Part shown: in pieces, positions 18,472 to 23,065 of the stretch
Layout of the letters: each line of letters begins with the position of its first letter
Position numbering within the stretch: position 1 is the stretch's first letter
Source: Verrucomicrobiota bacterium
GTDB lineage: Bacteria; Verrucomicrobiota; Verrucomicrobiia; Limisphaerales; CANJXF01
Reading direction: 5' to 3'
Length of the DNA: 23,065 nucleotides
NCBI GenBank assembly: GCA_038214755.1
Contig: JBBQRQ010000081.1
Span: 1 to 23,065 of the forward strand
Notes under the pieces: model-generated
Database searches by the model: none
Seen by the model: the letters and a program-made list of their open reading frames with translations, nothing else
What the model was told of the DNA's origin: nothing
Program-made: the position numbers and the translations under genes

Positions 18472-18599
18472 ACACCAACATCCAAGCTCCAAGCTCCAGA
18501 GAAATTCCAATAACCAAACTTCAAATGTGAGGTCACGCGGTGTTTTGAAGTTTGAAATTTGGAGCTTCTCTGGTGTTTGGATGTTGGTGTTTGGAATTT
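18470..18599. repeat. Heptamer-periodic inverted repeat filling the imuB-dnaE2 spacer
   Basis: Two 56-nt arms (18470-18525, 18544-18599) of AANNNCC-type units around a central AGAGAA, imperfectly complementary. Confidence 0.85.
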
Positions 18600-18606
18600 T
18601 TTTCCT

Positions 18607-21600
18607 ATGAGCTACGTCGAACTCCATGCCCGAAGCGCGTTTAGTTTTCTGCGCGGCTCGTCTCATCCCGAACAACTCGCTGAAGTCGCCGCGCAATTAA
18701 ATTTGCCAGCGATGGCCATTTGCGACCGCAATGGTGTTTACGGCGCGCCAAGATTTTTCAACAAGGCGAAGGAAATTGGTTTGCGCCCCATTGTCGGCGC
18801 GGAGTTGACGATGGAAGACGATTCCGTTTTGCCGGTGCTGGTTGAAAACCGCGCGGGCTATCAGAATCTTTGCCGGCTTCTCACCCACGCTCACCTGCGG
18901 AGCGAAAAAGGAAAAAGCAAAGTGGGCTGGGATGAATTGCCGGAGTTTGTTCAAGGGTTAGTCGCGCTAACGGGTGATGAAGAAGGGCCGCTCGTGAAAG
19001 CGATTTGTAGGAGACGAGGTGACGAGTCTCATTTCAAAAATAATCAGAATCTCCTCACGTCGATTCCTACAATTTTGGAGCGCCTCGTTCAAACGTTCGG
19101 GAACAAAAACGTTTTTGTCGAAATCCAACGACACCACATTCGCGGCGAGGAACGCATCAATAAATCTCTCGTGGAACTTGCGGCGCAATTTCGTCTTCCG
19201 TTGCTGGCAACGAACGGCGTTCTTCATGCCACCCCCGCTGGAAGACAGGCGCTCGACGTTTTCACCTGCGCTCGAAATCACACCCACCTCGATGCCGCTG
19301 GCAGATTACTCGCGCAAAACAGCGAGCGCTTTTTAAAAAACGAAAAGCAGATGCGCGAACTGTTCCGCGATTTGCCGGAAGCGATTGAAAATACTTCGCC
19401 CCTCGCCGAGCGTCTTCAATTCTCTCTCGATAATCTTGGCTATGAATTTCCGAAATACTCCGTCCCGCCCGGACACGATGCGAATTCCTTTTTACGCGAA
19501 CGAACTTTGGCGGGGGCGAGAAAGCGATATGCCGGCGAAATCCCCGCGAAAGTTTTTCAGCAGGTGAACCACGAACTCGCGCTCATTCAAAAACTGGGCG
19601 TTGCCGGATATTTTTTAATCGTCTGGGACATGGTCGAGTTTTGCGCGCAGGAAAACATCATGGCGCAAGGTCGCGGCAGCGCGGCGAATAGCTCAGTCTG
19701 TTTTTGCCTCGGCATCACGAACGTTGATCCGCTGAAGTTTCACACACTGTTCGAACGGTTTCTCAGCGAAGGAAGAAAAAATAATTGGCCGGACATCGAC
19801 ATCGATTTGCCGAGCGGCGACCGGCGCGAGCGCGTCATTCAGGAAGTTTACAAACGTTACGGCAAAAATAGTGGGGCAGGCTGCCAGCCTGCCAGTGATA
19901 AAAACAACACCGCAGGCTGGCTAGCAGCCTGCCCCACTATTTGTGGTGCGGCCATGACCGCCAATGTCATTTGTTATCGCGGACGCAGCGCCGCTCGTGA
20001 AATTGGCAAAGCTCTAAATATTTCCACCGACGTGCTCGACCGTTTCTCAAATCTTTTTGCCAATGGAGATTTTCCGCACACGCTGGATTTCGTCGCGCAA
20101 ATGGAAAAGGCTGGTTTGCCTTCACAACATCCACGCGCTCTCGCCTTCGCCACTCTCTACCAACAAATTGCCGGAGAATATTTGCCGCGACATCTCGGCC
20201 AGCACTCCGGCGGAATGATTATTTGCCAGGACCAACTCAGCTCAATTGTTCCACTTGAGAATGCTTCGATGCCTGGCCGCGTCGTCGCGCAATGGGATAA
20301 AGATGACTGCGAAGAACTCGGCATTATCAAAGTGGATTTTCTCGGACTCGGCATGATGTCCGTCATTCAAGACAGCGTTGAACTCACGCGAGAGTTGGGA
20401 CGACCGCTCGATCTGGCTAATCTTCCGCCGGACGATCCGAAAACTTTTGAGATGATTCGCGCCGCGGACACCATTGGCGTTTTTCAAATCGAAAGCCGCG
20501 CGCAAATGGCGACGTTGCCGCGGATGAAACCGAAAACTTTTTATGATCTGTGTATTGAAGTCGCGATCATTCGCCCCGGACCGATCCAGGGAAACTTGAT
20601 GCATCCGTATCTGGCGCGCCGCGCGGGAAAAGAGCCGATCACTTATTACGATAAAAATTTAGAGCCGATTCTTAAGCCGGTTTTGGAGCGGACGTTGGGC
20701 GTGCCGCTCTTCCAGGAACAAATGCTGGAAATCGCCATGGTGCTGACCGATTTCACCGGCTCGGAAGCGGAAGAATTACGACGCGCGTTGAGCTTTCATC
20801 GTTCGCACGAAAAAATGCAACGCGTGGAAAAAAAACTTCGCGCGGCCATGCAGCGCAAAGGTCATTCCGAAGAAATCATCGAGCAAATTGTGGGCGCGAT
20901 CAGTTCGTTTGCGCTCTACGGTTTTCCCGAATCGCACGCCATCAGCTTCGCGCATCTGGCCTACGCGACGGCCTATTTGAAAGCGCACCGCGCACCGGAA
21001 TTTTACGCCAGTCTGCTGAACAATCAGCCGATGGGATTTTATTCGTCAGCAACGATTGTCAAAGATGGCAAGCGTCATGGGTTAAAATTTCGTCCCGTCT
21101 GCGCCGGCGAATCTGAATGGCTCTGCACAATTGCAAAAGACGATTCCATTCGCCTCGGCTTTTGCGTGGTGCAAGGACTTCGGCAGGATCGCGCCAATCA
21201 AATGTTGGAGGAGCGGGCCAAACAAAATTTTGATTCGATTCGAGATTTCAAATTGCGAAATCAATTCAACAAAGAGGAATTACGAACCCTCGCGGAAATC
21301 GGCGCGTTGAATGGTCTGGGCGCGCATCGTCGCGAGGCGCTGTGGGAAGTAGAACGCGAAATTCCGCAGGATGATTTGTTTTCGTGGCGTGGCAGAGACG
21401 CGTTCCACCGCGTTTCTGATCAAAACGAAAAATGGGACACGGTGGAACGTGTCCCTACCGAGTCAGACGAAAACTGTCCGCTGCTCCCGATGAATCCGGC
21501 CGAGCGACTTCGCGCGGATTACAATGGAACAAATTTAACTACCGGCGCGCATCCCATGGCTTTGCTCCGCAAAAATTTGGAATCACAAAACATCTGGCGC

Positions 21601-21909
21601 GCCTGCGATCTGCCCAAAGCGACACCGGGCCAAACCGTTCGCATCGCCGGAAATGTGATTTGCCGGCAGCGACCCGGCACGGCCAAGGGTTTTGTTTTCA
21701 TCACGCTCGAAGACGAAACCGGCATGAGCAACGCGATTGTTGCTCCAAAACTTTTTGAAAAGCTACGACTGGTGATTACGCAGGAGTCTTTTCTCTTGAT
21801 CGAGGGGCGACTACAGAATTCCGAGAACGTGATTTTGATTCAGGCGCGACACATCGAACGGTTATCTCACGAACATTTAGCGGGAAGTTCCTCTTACGAT
21901 TTTCATTAA
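18607..21909 (+). CDS. dnaE2: Error-prone DNA polymerase III alpha subunit
   Basis: YVELHARSAFSFL (PHP), GRGSAANS, FERF, PDIDID, HLGQHSGG, KVDFLGL, FQIESRAQ, YGFPESHA, RQRPGTAKG (OB) and C-terminal SYDFH. Start re-called to ATG 18607. Confidence 0.97.
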   Translation: MSYVELHARSAFSFLRGSSHPEQLAEVAAQLNLPAMAICDRNGVYGAPRFFNKAKEIGLRPIVGAELTMEDDSVLPVLVENRAGYQNLCRLLTHAHLRSEKGKSKVGWDELPEFVQGLVALTGDEEGPLVKAICRRRGDESHFKNNQNLLTSIPTILERLVQTFGNKNVFVEIQRHHIRGEERINKSLVELAAQFRLPLLATNGVLHATPAGRQALDVFTCARNHTHLDAAGRLLAQNSERFLKNEKQMRELFRDLPEAIENTSPLAERLQFSLDNLGYEFPKYSVPPGHDANSFLRERTLAGARKRYAGEIPAKVFQQVNHELALIQKLGVAGYFLIVWDMVEFCAQENIMAQGRGSAANSSVCFCLGITNVDPLKFHTLFERFLSEGRKNNWPDIDIDLPSGDRRERVIQEVYKRYGKNSGAGCQPASDKNNTAGWLAACPTICGAAMTANVICYRGRSAAREIGKALNISTDVLDRFSNLFANGDFPHTLDFVAQMEKAGLPSQHPRALAFATLYQQIAGEYLPRHLGQHSGGMIICQDQLSSIVPLENASMPGRVVAQWDKDDCEELGIIKVDFLGLGMMSVIQDSVELTRELGRPLDLANLPPDDPKTFEMIRAADTIGVFQIESRAQMATLPRMKPKTFYDLCIEVAIIRPGPIQGNLMHPYLARRAGKEPITYYDKNLEPILKPVLERTLGVPLFQEQMLEIAMVLTDFTGSEAEELRRALSFHRSHEKMQRVEKKLRAAMQRKGHSEEIIEQIVGAISSFALYGFPESHAISFAHLAYATAYLKAHRAPEFYASLLNNQPMGFYSSATIVKDGKRHGLKFRPVCAGESEWLCTIAKDDSIRLGFCVVQGLRQDRANQMLEERAKQNFDSIRDFKLRNQFNKEELRTLAEIGALNGLGAHRREALWEVEREIPQDDLFSWRGRDAFHRVSDQNEKWDTVERVPTESDENCPLLPMNPAERLRADYNGTNLTTGAHPMALLRKNLESQNIWRACDLPKATPGQTVRIAGNVICRQRPGTAKGFVFITLEDETGMSNAIVAPKLFEKLRLVITQESFLLIEGRLQNSENVILIQARHIERLSHEHLAGSSSYDFH
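19005..19072. repeat. GTAG-type REP-like pair in frame within dnaE2 PHP domain
   Basis: TTGTAGGAGACGAGGTGACGAGTCTC ... GAATCTCCTCACGTCGATTCCTACAA, a degenerate inverted pair sharing CTCCTCACGTCG with family A. Confidence 0.75.
19866..19942. repeat. REP-like pair in frame within dnaE2 catalytic region
   Basis: AAATAGTGGGGCAGGCTGCCAGCCTGC / GCAGGCTGGCTAGCAGCCTGCCCCACTATTT, perfect apart from 4 extra nt in the right arm. Confidence 0.92.
21391..21459. repeat. REP-like pair in frame within dnaE2 linker before the OB domain
   Basis: GGCAGAGACGCGTTCCACCGCGTTTC / GGGACACGGTGGAACGTGTCCCTACC, 20/26 complementary. Exactly 69 nt. Confidence 0.85.
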
Positions 21910-22799
21910 TCTTCAACTATCTGGAAATCGGGATGCTTCGGTTTGAAGACTTTGTTGATATATTCCCCAACAGAATCAGCGGCTAACAATTCCTTGTATT
22001 CGGCGGATTCAACTTTCGCGTATCGGTAAATCTCCCGGGCAAAGTCGATATCCAAGAATTCTCTTCCCGGATGATAACGAACTCTCTTAACCGCGGTGGA
22101 TTCAACCCGAACCCATTTCGGTTGTTTTGGTCGGTCCCCAATCACCTTCGCGACTTTTTTCAGGTCGGCGATAAAGCGTTTCATTTCGAGACGCCGCGAT
22201 TTGTCATCGGGCGCGCGTAAGATGGATGAAGGGTGCACAGTGGCAGTCACGTGTTGAGCGAGCGGCGAATTAAGAAATTCTCCACGTTGCTGGCTCACGC
22301 GAAAATTTTTTCCCAACAACGCCTGCGCCGCAGTTGCACCGAGGCAAACCACCACTTTCGGTTTCAACAAATCCAGTTCTGCATCCAGCCACGGACGGCA
22401 CGCCGCGATCTCGCGCGCGTTTGGTTTCTTGTGAATGCGCCGTTTTCCTTTCGGTTCCCATTTGAAATGTTTGACCGCGTTCGTCACGTAAACTTCGTCG
22501 CGATTGATGCCCGCTTCCCCCAGCGCCTTGTCCAAAAGTTTTCCCGCTGGACCGACGAACGGTTTTCCCGCGAGATCTTCGTCGTTGCCCGGTTGTTCGC
22601 CGACAAAAACAACTTTCGCGTGCTTTGATCCTTCGCCAAAAACAGTCTGCGTTCCCGATTTCCAGAGCGGACAAGCGGTGCAACCTTTCGCGGCCTTCTG
22701 AAGTTTTTCCAGGGTCGGCGAAGGTGGAATGAAGGCGGCGGCAGTTTGAAAATTTCCCGGGCATTGGCGGACACTTGGTTTTTCCTCCCGCAGTTCCAT
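21906..22799 (-). CDS. udgX: UdgX family uracil-DNA binding protein (family 4 UDG fold) with C-terminal KTSC-like domain
   Basis: CTAC (Fe-S), GEQPG, PFVGPAG, TNAVKHFK, KRRIH (22431-22445), LGATA and HPS motifs, then VESTAVKRVRY...LDIDF...YRY..V...Y..LL.ADSVGEYIN. Start re-called to ATG 22799. Confidence 0.9.
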   Translation of the reverse strand: MELREEKPSVRQCPGNFQTAAAFIPPSPTLEKLQKAAKGCTACPLWKSGTQTVFGEGSKHAKVVFVGEQPGNDEDLAGKPFVGPAGKLLDKALGEAGINRDEVYVTNAVKHFKWEPKGKRRIHKKPNAREIAACRPWLDAELDLLKPKVVVCLGATAAQALLGKNFRVSQQRGEFLNSPLAQHVTATVHPSSILRAPDDKSRRLEMKRFIADLKKVAKVIGDRPKQPKWVRVESTAVKRVRYHPGREFLDIDFAREIYRYAKVESAEYKELLAADSVGEYINKVFKPKHPDFQIVED

Positions 22800-22911
22800 G
22801 GCCGCAAAATAACACCGAGCCGGAATGCTAAAATGGGGTTCTCCCTGAATTTGGCGCGCAACTGTGCCGCCCCTGGTTAGGCCGGAACTATTCAGTGGAA
22901 AACATTGCTCG

Positions 22912-22941
22912 CCCCTCACCCCGGCCCTCTCCCCCGAGGAG
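22912..22941. repeat. REP-like CCCTCACCCCGGCCCTCTCCC unit, cut by IS110 insertion
   Basis: CCCCTCACCCCGGCCCTCTCCCCCGAGGAG. The hairpin-closing arm (expected GGAGAGGG) stops after GGAG. Confidence 0.75.
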
Positions 22942-23065
22942 CAACGGTGTTCAAAAGCAAAGGAAATTAAGCGGGTTGGATTTTGGTTTTTTGGCAATGG
23001 AGGGCGTGTTCTTTGAGGAGGCGATTCATTTGGAGGAGGAGTTTGCGCATGACCGCAGTGAGGGC
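22940..23065 (-). mobile_element. Right end of IS110-family insertion sequence (partial)
   Basis: Recombinase C-terminus followed by a short non-coding end TTTCCTTTGCTTTTGAACACCGTTGCT, finishing in CT, directly abutting the REP-like unit. Confidence 0.75.
22967..23065 (-). CDS. IS110 family recombinase/transposase, C-terminal fragment
   Basis: Manual translation ALTAVMRKLLLQMNRLLKEHALHCQKTKIQPA*. ALxAxMRKLL is the characteristic IS110 C-terminal motif. Not in the ORF track. Confidence 0.8.
   Translation of the reverse strand, partial: ALTAVMRKLLLQMNRLLKEHALHCQKTKIQPA

What the first reader, a model, noticed from the sequence alone, without database searches (positions are those of the whole stretch)
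22912..23065. IS110 bridge-recombinase element inserted at a CT core inside a REP hairpin
Seen (minus strand): ...ALTAVMRKLL...QPA*, then a 27-nt end containing TTGCTT, followed 13 nt later by CT, then CCTCGGGGGAGAGGGCCGGGGTGAGGGG. Restoring CCCT before the CT gives a hairpin CCCTCTCC-TCGGG-GGAGAGGG. Established: IS621-like IS110 elements use a CT core, target REP sequences, carry a -35 box in the right end, and express a bridge RNA from the circle junction. Inference: an IS110 whose bridge RNA (left end, outside the window) is programmed against this repeat family, predicting a target like CCCT-CT-CCTCGGG.
Basis: partly seen in the sequence, partly recalled or inferred. Interest (0 to 1): 0.72.

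Follow-up and report, generated by a model that had tools for sequence, protein, structure and literature searches.

The report
IS110 bridge-RNA element in repeat hairpin
The window ends inside an ordinary but complete-looking IS110-type jumping gene that uses its own guide RNA to insert at one exact spot in a hairpin repeat scattered about 150 times over this bacterium's genome.

Summary
The window is a whole contig that stops 124 bases inside an insertion sequence (IS). Contig C98 of the same assembly overlaps the last 141 bases exactly and carries the rest, giving a 1,233-nt element plus a CT core. It encodes a 319-aa IS110-family recombinase with D13, E55, D97, D100 and S236 aligned to the IS621 catalytic residues. 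It has a 25-nt right end and a 248-nt left end.

Four right junctions and three left junctions were found. Together they reconstruct the target CCCT-CT-CCTCG(G) inside the hairpin CCCTCTCC-TCGGR-GGAGAGGG, which has 153 copies in the assembly.

The left end folds into a conserved RNA; 22 of 50 pairs show compensatory changes across 12 related elements. Its loops hold CCCUCU (same letters as the left target), CGAGGAG (complement of the right target), ACCGUUG (left donor) and CAAG (right donor).

In 9 of 9 related elements the right-target guide matches its own flank over 7-8 bases, across seven different flank sequences. A -35 TTGCTT in the right end and a -10 TATGTT in the left end lie 17 nt apart once the ends are joined.

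This is a new member of a known kind. Circles, RNA expression, and which left flank belongs to this window's copy remain untested.

The parts
22881..22941 (.). Outer arm of a REP-like repeat. It is one of two inverted arms of about 60 nt in a composite unit of about 200-260 nt. The insertion cuts it at its inner end.
   Evidence: Bases 22881-22941 match dozens of places in the assembly at 80-89% identity, mostly as inverted pairs. There are 46 head-to-head pairs with inner spacers of about 67 or about 125 nt.
22925..22941 (-). The retained part of the target hairpin: stem arm CCCTCTCC (22925-22932, + strand), loop CCCGA (22933-22937) and GGAG (22938-22941). The closing AGGG lies on the other side of the IS.
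   Evidence: Read directly. Intact copies CCCTCTCC-CCCGA-GGAGAGGG / CCCTCTCC-TCGGG-GGAGAGGG number 70 in the genome, and the TCGGA-loop variant 45.
22940..22941 (-). Core dinucleotide CT (AG on the + strand). It is present at both junctions of the element and once in the intact target.
   Evidence: Right junctions read ...CCGTTG-CT-CCTCGG in 4 of 4. Left junctions read CCCT-CT-TGTATG in 3 of 3.
22935..22941 (-). Right target (RT) CTCCTCG. It is complementary to the right target guide CGAGGAG of the bridge RNA (L001 1114-1120).
   Evidence: There are 7 contiguous matches. In 9 of 9 related elements the cognate guide matches its own flank over 7-8 nt.
22942..22966 (-). Right end (RE) of the IS, 25 nt non-coding, read on the minus strand from the stop codon to ...AACACCGTTG.
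   Evidence: Identical at the four contig ends C81, C109, C30 and C14. The motif ACACCGTTG-CT is conserved in the relatives.
22942..22948 (-). Left donor (LD) ACCGTTG. The left donor guide ACCGUUG of the bridge RNA (L001 1073-1079) has the same letters.
22955..22960 (-). -35-like hexamer TTGCTT. It is half of a promoter that is complete only when RE and LE are joined in a circle.
   Evidence: It lies 13 nt before the core. With the core and 2 nt of LE this gives a 17-nt spacer to TATGTT. TTGnnn, 17 nt and a -10-like hexamer (TATnTT in 6 of 8; TATGTC in L010, CATGTT in L013) stand in the same positions in 8 of 8 elements examined.
22967..23065 (-). 3' end of the IS110 recombinase gene: the last 32 codons plus the stop at 22967-22969. 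The gene continues on contig C98 (L001 46-1002, 319 aa).
21906..22799 (-). Neighbouring host gene (UDG domain plus KTSC domain). Its start codon lies 142 nt beyond the IS right end and it has the same orientation as the recombinase gene. Context only.
   Evidence: Pfam PF03167 (131.9 bits) and PF13619 (46.6 bits).

Best explanation
The window ends in the right end of an IS110-group, IS621-like insertion sequence of 1,233 nt plus a CT core. At least four near-identical copies exist in this Verrucomicrobiota genome.

**Shown from sequence**
- The element encodes a 319-aa DEDD/Ser recombinase.
- Its 248-nt left end encodes a structured RNA with the architecture of a bridge RNA.
  - The target-binding loop carries CCCUCU, the same letters as the left target plus core, so it can pair with the bottom strand. 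It also carries CGAGGAG, the complement of core plus right target.
  - The donor-binding loop carries ACCGUUG, the same letters as the last 7 nt of the right end. It also carries GCAAG, which is complementary to the core plus the first bases of the left end.
- Every copy recovered sits at CCCT-CT-CCTCG, in one arm of a hairpin repeat, always in the same orientation relative to the repeat's GGGGTGAGG tail.

**Inferred from the IS621 mechanism**
- The element excises as a circle.
- Joining RE to LE creates a sigma-70 promoter (TTGCTT, 17 nt, TATGTT) that transcribes the bridge RNA and the recombinase.
- The RNA then pairs one loop with the circle junction and the other with the repeat. The recombinase exchanges strands at CT.
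- About 130 unoccupied sites with the same 11-mer remain available in the genome.
For: **Protein**
- Pfam PF01548 scores 64.1 bits and PF02371 47.2 bits. NCBIfam NF033542 scores 182.5 bits against a cut-off of 140.
- The best solved relatives are ISCro4 9t56 (E 1.5e-26) and IS621 8wt6 (E 2.1e-25).
- D13, E55, D97, D100 and S236-G237 align with IS621 D11, E60, D102, D105 and S241-G242. This rests on the alignment and the residue roles in passages of PMC11208158.

**Junctions**
- There are 4 right and 3 left junctions with different outer flanks. All are at CCCT-CT-CCTCGG.

**RNA**
- The left end's minimum free energy is -123.3 kcal/mol, z = -6.35, and 0 of 200 shuffles fold as well.
- On 12 aligned left ends, 96% of cells are paired and 22 of 50 pairs show compensatory changes. 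None of 500 shuffles reaches this, and slid controls give 40-48% paired.

**Guides**
- The right-target guide matches its own flank over 7-8 contiguous nt in 9 of 9 elements, across seven distinct flank sequences. The non-cognate mean is 3.1, which includes the shared 2-nt core.
- The left-target guide matches 5-7 of 7 positions in 10 of 11 rows.
- In this element the ordered arrangement LTG, RTG, LDG, RDG was tested against 5,000 dinucleotide-preserving shuffles of the LE. None showed both loops, 1 showed a TBL-like pair and 21 a DBL-like pair.
- RNAalifold itself paired the core plus LE start with the RDG columns (helix 16-21 with 245-250, 97% paired).

**Promoter**
- TTGnnn, a 17-nt spacer and a -10-like hexamer stand in the same positions in 8 of 8 elements; the -10 reads TATnTT in 6 of 8.

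**Copy identity**
- No variant letters were seen inside the IS in run X1. IS contigs have depth 47-86 against 22-25 for the flanks.
Against: - No circle junction, no RNA data and no experiment are available. Only assembled contigs of public runs could be laid, and these cannot show rare forms.
- The IS is collapsed in the assembly. The 17-nt flank at the start of C98 is identical to both C81 and C30, so the left flank of this window's own copy is unknown. Only 3 left junctions were found for 4 right junctions.
- The left target guide has G where all 3 left flanks have T, so LTG pairing is only 6 nt.
- The left donor guide reads A at the first core position, where C would be needed. This holds here and in 6 relatives.
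- One relative, L010, matches its left flank at only 3 of 7 positions because its junction is degenerate.
- No Rfam family reaches its threshold on the left end.
Confidence: 0.9

Rival explanations
1. The copies are inert relics. On this reading the element was once an IS110, no longer moves, and its shared junctions were inherited.
For: No circle or RNA evidence was found. The LTG has one mismatch to its flank and the LDG one mismatch at the core. One left junction is missing. Only 1 of 8 other genomes of the genus holds a close copy at 77% identity.
Against: The reading frame is intact with all five catalytic residues. The four right ends are identical over 124-127 nt, while the adjoining repeat arms differ by about 5% and the outer flanks are unrelated. 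No variant letters were found inside the IS in run X1. Promoter halves and guides are intact.
Confidence: 0.07
2. The IS and its flanking repeat were spread together by duplication of a larger composite unit, not by site-specific insertion into pre-existing repeats.
For: All four right flanks share about 60 nt of similar sequence next to the IS. The repeats themselves form composite units.
Against: The shared 60 nt is simply the repeat arm, which occurs about 150 times without any IS. The arms next to the IS are no more alike (94-96%) than is usual within the repeat family, whereas the IS is identical. Relatives of the IS sit in quite different repeats, and their guides have changed to match.
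Confidence: 0.02
3. Site choice is made by the protein recognising the hairpin, and the complementarity of the left-end RNA is incidental.
For: All targets in the clade are hairpin repeats. A 2026 preprint reports that a target stem-loop adds specificity for ISPpu10 (abstract only).
Against: The guide loops change in step with the flanks while the scaffold stays constant: 9 of 9 cognate matches of 7-8 nt over seven flank sequences. Chance arrangement of both loops occurred in 0 of 5,000 shuffles. A structural contribution may exist alongside RNA guidance, but it cannot replace it.
Confidence: 0.01

Closest known systems
IS621 of Escherichia coli (IS110 group; bridge RNA; PDB 8wt6)
   Same: - It has the same two protein domains and the same aligned catalytic residues D, E, D, D and S.
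- It has a CT core, a short RE and a long LE.
- The RNA runs 5' stem-loop, then target-binding loop (stem, LTG, stem-loop, RTG), then donor-binding loop (stem, LDG, stem-loop, RDG). This follows passages of PMC11208158 and PMC11208160.
- The promoter is split across the circle junction.
- It inserts into REP-type palindromes (PMC11208160).
   Different: - The protein similarity is distant (E 2.1e-25).
- The 11-bp target is split differently. Here it is 4 + CT + 5, that is LTG 6 nt and RTG 7 nt including the core. In IS621 it is 7 + CT + 2, that is LTG 9 nt and RTG 4 nt.
- There are two 5' stem-loops rather than one.
- The host phylum and the repeat family are different.
ISCro4 (best-scoring solved structure, PDB 9t56)
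   Same: It is the best sequence match among solved structures (E 1.5e-26, query residues 9-299 aligned).
   Different: Only the depositors' molecule name was seen. No paper on it was read, so ends, RNA and target could not be compared.
ISPpu9 / ISPpu10 of Pseudomonas putida (IS110 family, REP or stem-loop targets)
   Same: These are multi-copy IS110 elements inserted at one position in a repeated intergenic palindrome. Sources: PMC12288879 (search listing only) and preprint 10.64898/2026.03.19.712850 (abstract and outline only).
   Different: The host, the repeat and the guide sequences all differ. Whether the hairpin itself contributes to recognition here is untested.

Membership tests
IS110 family, IS110 group (bridge recombinase elements) | [quoted passage not shown] | tested here: met
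   64.1 bits against a cut-off of 29, residues 11-144. D13, E55, D97 and D100 align to IS621 D11, E60, D102 and D105.
IS110 family, IS110 group (bridge recombinase elements) | C-terminal Tnp domain (PF02371) with the conserved catalytic serine | tested here: met
   47.2 bits against a cut-off of 21.3, residues 192-275. S236-G237 align to IS621 S241-G242.
IS110 family, IS110 group (bridge recombinase elements) | Whole-protein match to the curated equivalog model | tested here: met
   NF033542 'IS110 family RNA-guided transposase', 182.5 bits against a cut-off of 140. It gives a single match in the genome.
IS110 family, IS110 group (bridge recombinase elements) | No terminal inverted repeats; a short core (CT) shared by both junctions and the target | tested here: met
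   CT is present at 4 of 4 right and 3 of 3 left junctions, and once in intact hairpins.
IS110 family, IS110 group (bridge recombinase elements) | Long LE and short RE (the IS1111 group has the reverse, with the RNA in the RE) | tested here: met
   LE is 248 nt and RE is 25 nt. The criterion comes from PMC11208160.
IS110 family, IS110 group (bridge recombinase elements) | Structured LE RNA with two internal loops complementary to target and donor | tested here: met
   Structure: 22 of 50 pairs are compensatory and 0 of 500 shuffles reach this. Guides. There are exceptions: one LTG mismatch, one LDG core mismatch, and the junction of L010.
IS110 family, IS110 group (bridge recombinase elements) | Sigma-70 promoter reconstituted across the RE-LE junction | tested here: met
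   This holds at the sequence level only. TTGCTT, 17 nt and TATGTT are conserved in position in 8 of 8 elements. Activity was not tested.
IS110 family, IS110 group (bridge recombinase elements) | Circular intermediate and expressed bridge RNA | not testable with these tools
   Only contigs of two DNA runs were available and no RNA holder was listed.
REP (repetitive extragenic palindromic) elements | Short imperfect palindrome in high copy number, often in inverted pairs | tested here: met
   There are 153 hairpins, 144 of them with the GGGTGAGG tail, and 46 head-to-head pairs. Whether all are extragenic was not tested.
REP (repetitive extragenic palindromic) elements | Association with a cognate RAYT (Y1 transposase) flanked by the repeats | tested here: not met
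   Sixteen Y1_Tnp matches pass the cut-off. Only 2 have this hairpin within 1.5 kb, and on one side only.
Rfam families (any) | Score at or above the family's gathering threshold | tested here: not met
   The best hits on L001 are proV at 21.7 bits against 88.5 and whalefall-1 at 21.4 against 37.

The most novel reading that the evidence does not exclude
This clade of Verrucomicrobiota IS110 elements is a natural reprogramming series on one constant RNA scaffold, with seven right-target specificities among nine elements.

The element in this window may have arisen from a sister that inserts into the tail-proximal arm of the same palindromic repeat (GCCCT-CT-CCCCN, as in L009, L010, L011 and L013). 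One or two base changes in the right target guide (GGGGAG to GAGGAG) would move it to the symmetry-related site on the other arm and invert its orientation.

Its left target guide still carries the G that fits the sister's site but mismatches its own flank. That G would be a fossil of the switch.
Probability: 0.35. Interest if true: 0.4.

Novelty: new member of a known kind. Interest (0 to 1): 0.3.

Why it matters
The find is modest. It adds a well-resolved bridge-RNA element from a phylum not mentioned in the founding paper; 'Verrucomicrobi' occurs 0 times in the main text of PMC11208160.

The set of relatives gives a compact natural series in which guide loops and insertion sites change together. 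That series could serve as a test bed for three things:
- target rules, here a 4+2+5 split rather than 7+2+2;
- the role of hairpin targets;
- minimal left ends, since one relative lacks both 5' stem-loops.

For genome annotation, it explains why this contig and at least six others break where they do.

Tried and rejected
- **Rfam scan.** I scanned L001 at a permissive threshold. Nothing came near any gathering score, so no curated RNA family covers this left end.
- **Public reads.** One run search returned 4 runs, of which 2 hold the stretch or part of it. No RNA holder was listed. Only Logan contigs were available, so no circle junction, RNA ends or empty-site reads could be seen. One contig joint (1257 to 1376, side 26 nt) was left uninterpreted.
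- **Pairing the window's right flank with a left flank by synteny.** The UDG gene is only about 72% identical in same-genus genomes. None of 79 ORFs from five relatives' loci matched the three left flanks. The pairing is unresolved.
- **RAYT link for the repeat.** It was not supported.
- **Rows left out.**
  - Of the 16 related loci, 11 were aligned with this element's left end to give the 12 rows of A1.
  - L007 was dropped because its left end is cut by a contig end, L017 and L018 because they carry the same element sequence as L015, and L020 and L021 because their genes are partial.
  - In the RT-RTG test, L012 was dropped because its right end lies beyond the contig end, and L016 and L022 because they carry the same RNA as L015.
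  - L019 was left out of the LT-LTG test because I could not find its left boundary.
- **Handshake guides.** I compared the two bases after RTG and RDG with donor and target position 7, by eye only. They fit in some relatives and not in this element, so I make no claim.
- **Hybrid promoter.** The idea that the RE -35 drives the neighbouring UDG gene was rejected by eye. No -10-like hexamer lies 17 nt downstream in the flank.

Full report
**1. What is in the window**

The window is the whole of contig C81 of a 175-contig, 5.1-Mb assembly. On the minus strand, 22967-23065 encodes ...ALTAVMRKLLLQMNRLLKEHALHCQKTKIQPA followed by a stop. After the stop come 25 non-coding bases (22966 down to 22942) that end in ...TTGCTT-TTGAACACCGTTG. 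Next is CT (22941-22940), and then CCTCGGGGGAGAGGGCCGGGGTGAGGGG.

**2. Recovering the element**

A BLAST of the last 185 bases against the assembly gave two kinds of match.

- Bases 22881-22941 belong to a repeat found in dozens of places, usually as inverted pairs.
- Bases from 22942 on recur only at contig ends: C109, C30 and C14, plus C98.

C98 overlaps window 22925-23065 exactly (141 nt) and continues through the rest of the element. I made L001 from C98:1-1600.

The element runs from L001:18 (which equals window 22942) to L001:1250, a length of 1,233 nt, with CT at both junctions.

- The four right junctions are identical inside the IS. Each abuts CT-CCTCGG(G/A)GGAGA(G/T)GG..., with unrelated sequence beyond the roughly 60-nt repeat arm.
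- The three left junctions (C98, C33, C8) read (T)CCCT-CT-TGTATGTTT, with unrelated sequence upstream.

Joined together, the flanks rebuild TCCCTCTCC-TCGGR-GGAGAGGG. The intact hairpin occurs 153 times (306 strand hits), 70 with loop TCGGG and 45 with TCGGA. The 11-mer CCCTCTCCTCG occurs 133 times.

The body of the IS is present only once in the assembly, because the copies were collapsed. The first 17 bases of C98 fit both C81 and C30. It therefore cannot be said which left flank belongs to the copy in this window. An attempt to decide by synteny with same-genus genomes failed.

**3. The protein**

L001:46-1002 (minus strand) gives a 319-aa protein.

- It carries PF01548 (DEDD_Tnp_IS110) and PF02371 (Transposase_20).
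- It passes the NCBIfam equivalog NF033542, 'IS110 family RNA-guided transposase', at 182.5 bits against a cut-off of 140.
- Its only solved relatives are ISCro4 and IS621.

In the IS621 alignment, D13, E55, D97, D100 and S236-G237 stand opposite chain residues 13, 62, 104, 107 and 243-244. With the chain's two extra N-terminal residues, these are IS621 D11, E60, D102, D105 and S241-G242. Passages of PMC11208158 describe those residues as the composite active site.

**4. The left-end RNA**

The 248-nt left end folds far better than shuffles: -123.3 kcal/mol, z = -6.35.

Sixteen related loci were found, all in MAGs labelled Verrucomicrobiota or relatives apart from odd labels, at 43-88% protein identity. 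Eleven of their left ends were aligned with this one (A1).

The scaffold is strongly conserved and the consensus structure is supported.

| Measure | Result |
|---|---|
| Cells paired | 96% |
| Pairs with compensatory changes | 22 of 50 |
| Shuffles reaching this | 0 of 500 |
| Cells paired when partners are slid | 40-48% |

The layout is as follows:

- one weakly and one strongly conserved 5' stem-loop;
- a stem, a loop strand, a stem-loop and a loop strand (the target-binding loop);
- the same pattern again (the donor-binding loop).

This is the order described for the IS621 bridge RNA in passages of PMC11208158.

**5. Guides**

[quoted passage not shown] The loops read as follows.

| Guide | Sequence | L001 coordinates | Pairs with |
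|---|---|---|---|
| LTG | CCCUCU | 1140-1145 | left target CCCT plus core CT |
| RTG | CGAGGAG | 1114-1120 | complement of CT-CCTCG |
| LDG | ACCGUUG | 1073-1079 | last 7 nt of the right end |
| RDG | GCAAG | 1028-1032 | CT-TG, plus a G-T wobble |

This ordered arrangement was tested against 5,000 dinucleotide-preserving shuffles of the left end. None had both loops, 1 had a target-like pair and 21 had a donor-like pair.

The relatives give stronger evidence.

- Each RTG matches its own right flank over 7-8 contiguous bases in 9 of 9 elements. The flanks involved are CCTCG, TCGGAA, CCCCCA, CCCCG, CCCCA(A), GCCGT(A) and GGGCTA.
- Non-cognate pairs average 3.1 matches, 2 of which are the shared core. 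High non-cognate values occur only between elements with nearly the same guide.
- LTG against left flank gives 6, 6, 7, 3, 5, 7, 6, 6, 6, 5 and 7 matches out of 7.

Four results run against a perfect fit.

- The LTG here has G where all three flanks have T.
- The LDG has A opposite the first core base, here and in six relatives.
- L010 has a degenerate left junction, with GG in place of CTTG.
- The left boundary of L019 could not be found.

**6. Promoter**

The right end holds TTGCTT 13 nt before the core. The left end holds TATGTT from its third base. Joined through CT, the spacer is 17 nt.

TTGnnn, 17 nt and a -10-like hexamer stand in the same positions in 8 of 8 elements examined; the hexamer reads TATnTT in 6 of 8, with TATGTC in L010 and CATGTT in L013. 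This matches the circle-junction promoter described for IS621 (PMC11208160). In the integrated state, the hexamer 17 nt upstream of TATGTT is a poor -35. That last point is judged by eye only.

**7. The target repeat**

The hairpin carries a GGGGTGAGG tail and about 35 further conserved bases. Of 144 oriented copies, 46 pairs stand head to head with inner spacers of about 67 or about 125 nt. These form composite units of roughly 200-260 nt. The family also occurs in other genomes of the genus.

It is REP-like in form. However, only 2 of the 16 Y1-transposase matches over the cut-off have it nearby. Earlier notes of this scan describe RAYTs in this genome with their own GTAG-tagged repeats, and I did not test that claim. 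I therefore call it a REP-like hairpin repeat, not a proven RAYT-type REP.

**8. Activity**

In run X1 no variant letters were reported inside the IS. IS contigs have depth 47-86 against 22-25 for single flanks. This is consistent with several near-identical copies, though contig depth is a crude measure.

Only 1 of 8 other genomes of the genus holds a close relative, at 77% identity. Both points fit recent spread. Circles and RNA could not be examined.

**9. Comparison and verdict**

The element meets every sequence-level criterion of the IS110 group that I could test.

- **Same as IS621:** it works from the same parts as IS621.
- **Different from IS621:** the 11-bp target is divided 4+CT+5 rather than 7+CT+2. 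There are two 5' stem-loops. The host phylum and the repeat family are different.

REP targeting by IS110 elements is long known. I saw Choi 2003 and Tobes & Pareja 2006 only as entries in the reference list of PMC11208160.

The finding is correct and nicely complete, but ordinary: a new member of a known kind.

The boldest reading still open concerns sister elements that insert into the opposite, symmetry-related arm of the same kind of palindrome. They differ from this one mainly by one or two bases of the RTG (GGGGAG against GAGGAG). The mismatched G in this element's LTG fits their site, which would make it a trace of a natural retargeting event.

Noticed in passing
L011:1024-1203 (relative, MAG of Verrucomicrobiia): This relative's left end lacks both 5' stem-loops and is about 88 nt shorter. 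It goes from TGTATGT straight into the target-binding loop. It still has an open recombinase gene with residues 1-305 matched, and it sits in a hairpin repeat with matching guides. It looks like a natural minimal bridge-RNA left end.
   Followed up: partly
L010:941-960: The left junction reads ...AACCCT-GG-TATGTC in place of ...CCCT-CT-TGTATG. The core and the first bases of the left end are damaged, so this copy is probably immobile. It explains the one poor LT-LTG score.
   Followed up: partly
L012 and L020 (contigs of a MAG labelled Klebsiella pneumoniae): These loci hold copies 66-88% identical to this Verrucomicrobiota IS. L012 is flanked upstream by GGGGAGAGGGCCGGGGTGAGGGG-type repeats. 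The bin label looks wrong, or the bin is contaminated.
   Followed up: no
L014-L018, L022 (relatives): These elements insert into a different hairpin repeat that begins with a CCCGTAGCGCAG-type sequence, such as ...GCAGACTTCCAGT-CT-GCCGTTTCGCAGG. Five copies lie in one 5.8-Mb chromosome. Some occupied sites are followed within 150 nt by unoccupied copies of the same repeat.
   Followed up: partly
L001:1380-1415 (intact hairpin copy next to the IS on C98): The hairpin plus its GGGGTGAGG tail gives a weak match to Rfam whalefall-1 RNA (RF01762), at 21.4 bits against a gathering score of 37 and E 0.012. It is not a member, but the resemblance suggests that motif might itself be a REP-like repeat.
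   Followed up: no
window 21906-22799 (minus) and 18559-21909 (plus): The host genes next to the IS are a uracil-DNA glycosylase fused to a C-terminal KTSC domain and a 1,116-aa DNA polymerase III alpha-type protein. Their 3' ends converge and overlap by 4 bases (21906-21909).
   Followed up: partly
G000:C14:1262-2705: There is a run of at least ten copies of the hairpin repeat with a period of about 255 nt, right next to one of the IS insertion sites.
   Followed up: no
RE/LE ends of this element and of L008: A 4-nt sub-terminal inverted repeat flanks the donor site. It reads AACA...TGTT here and AATA...TATT in L008, which is a compensatory change. This was seen by eye only.
   Followed up: no
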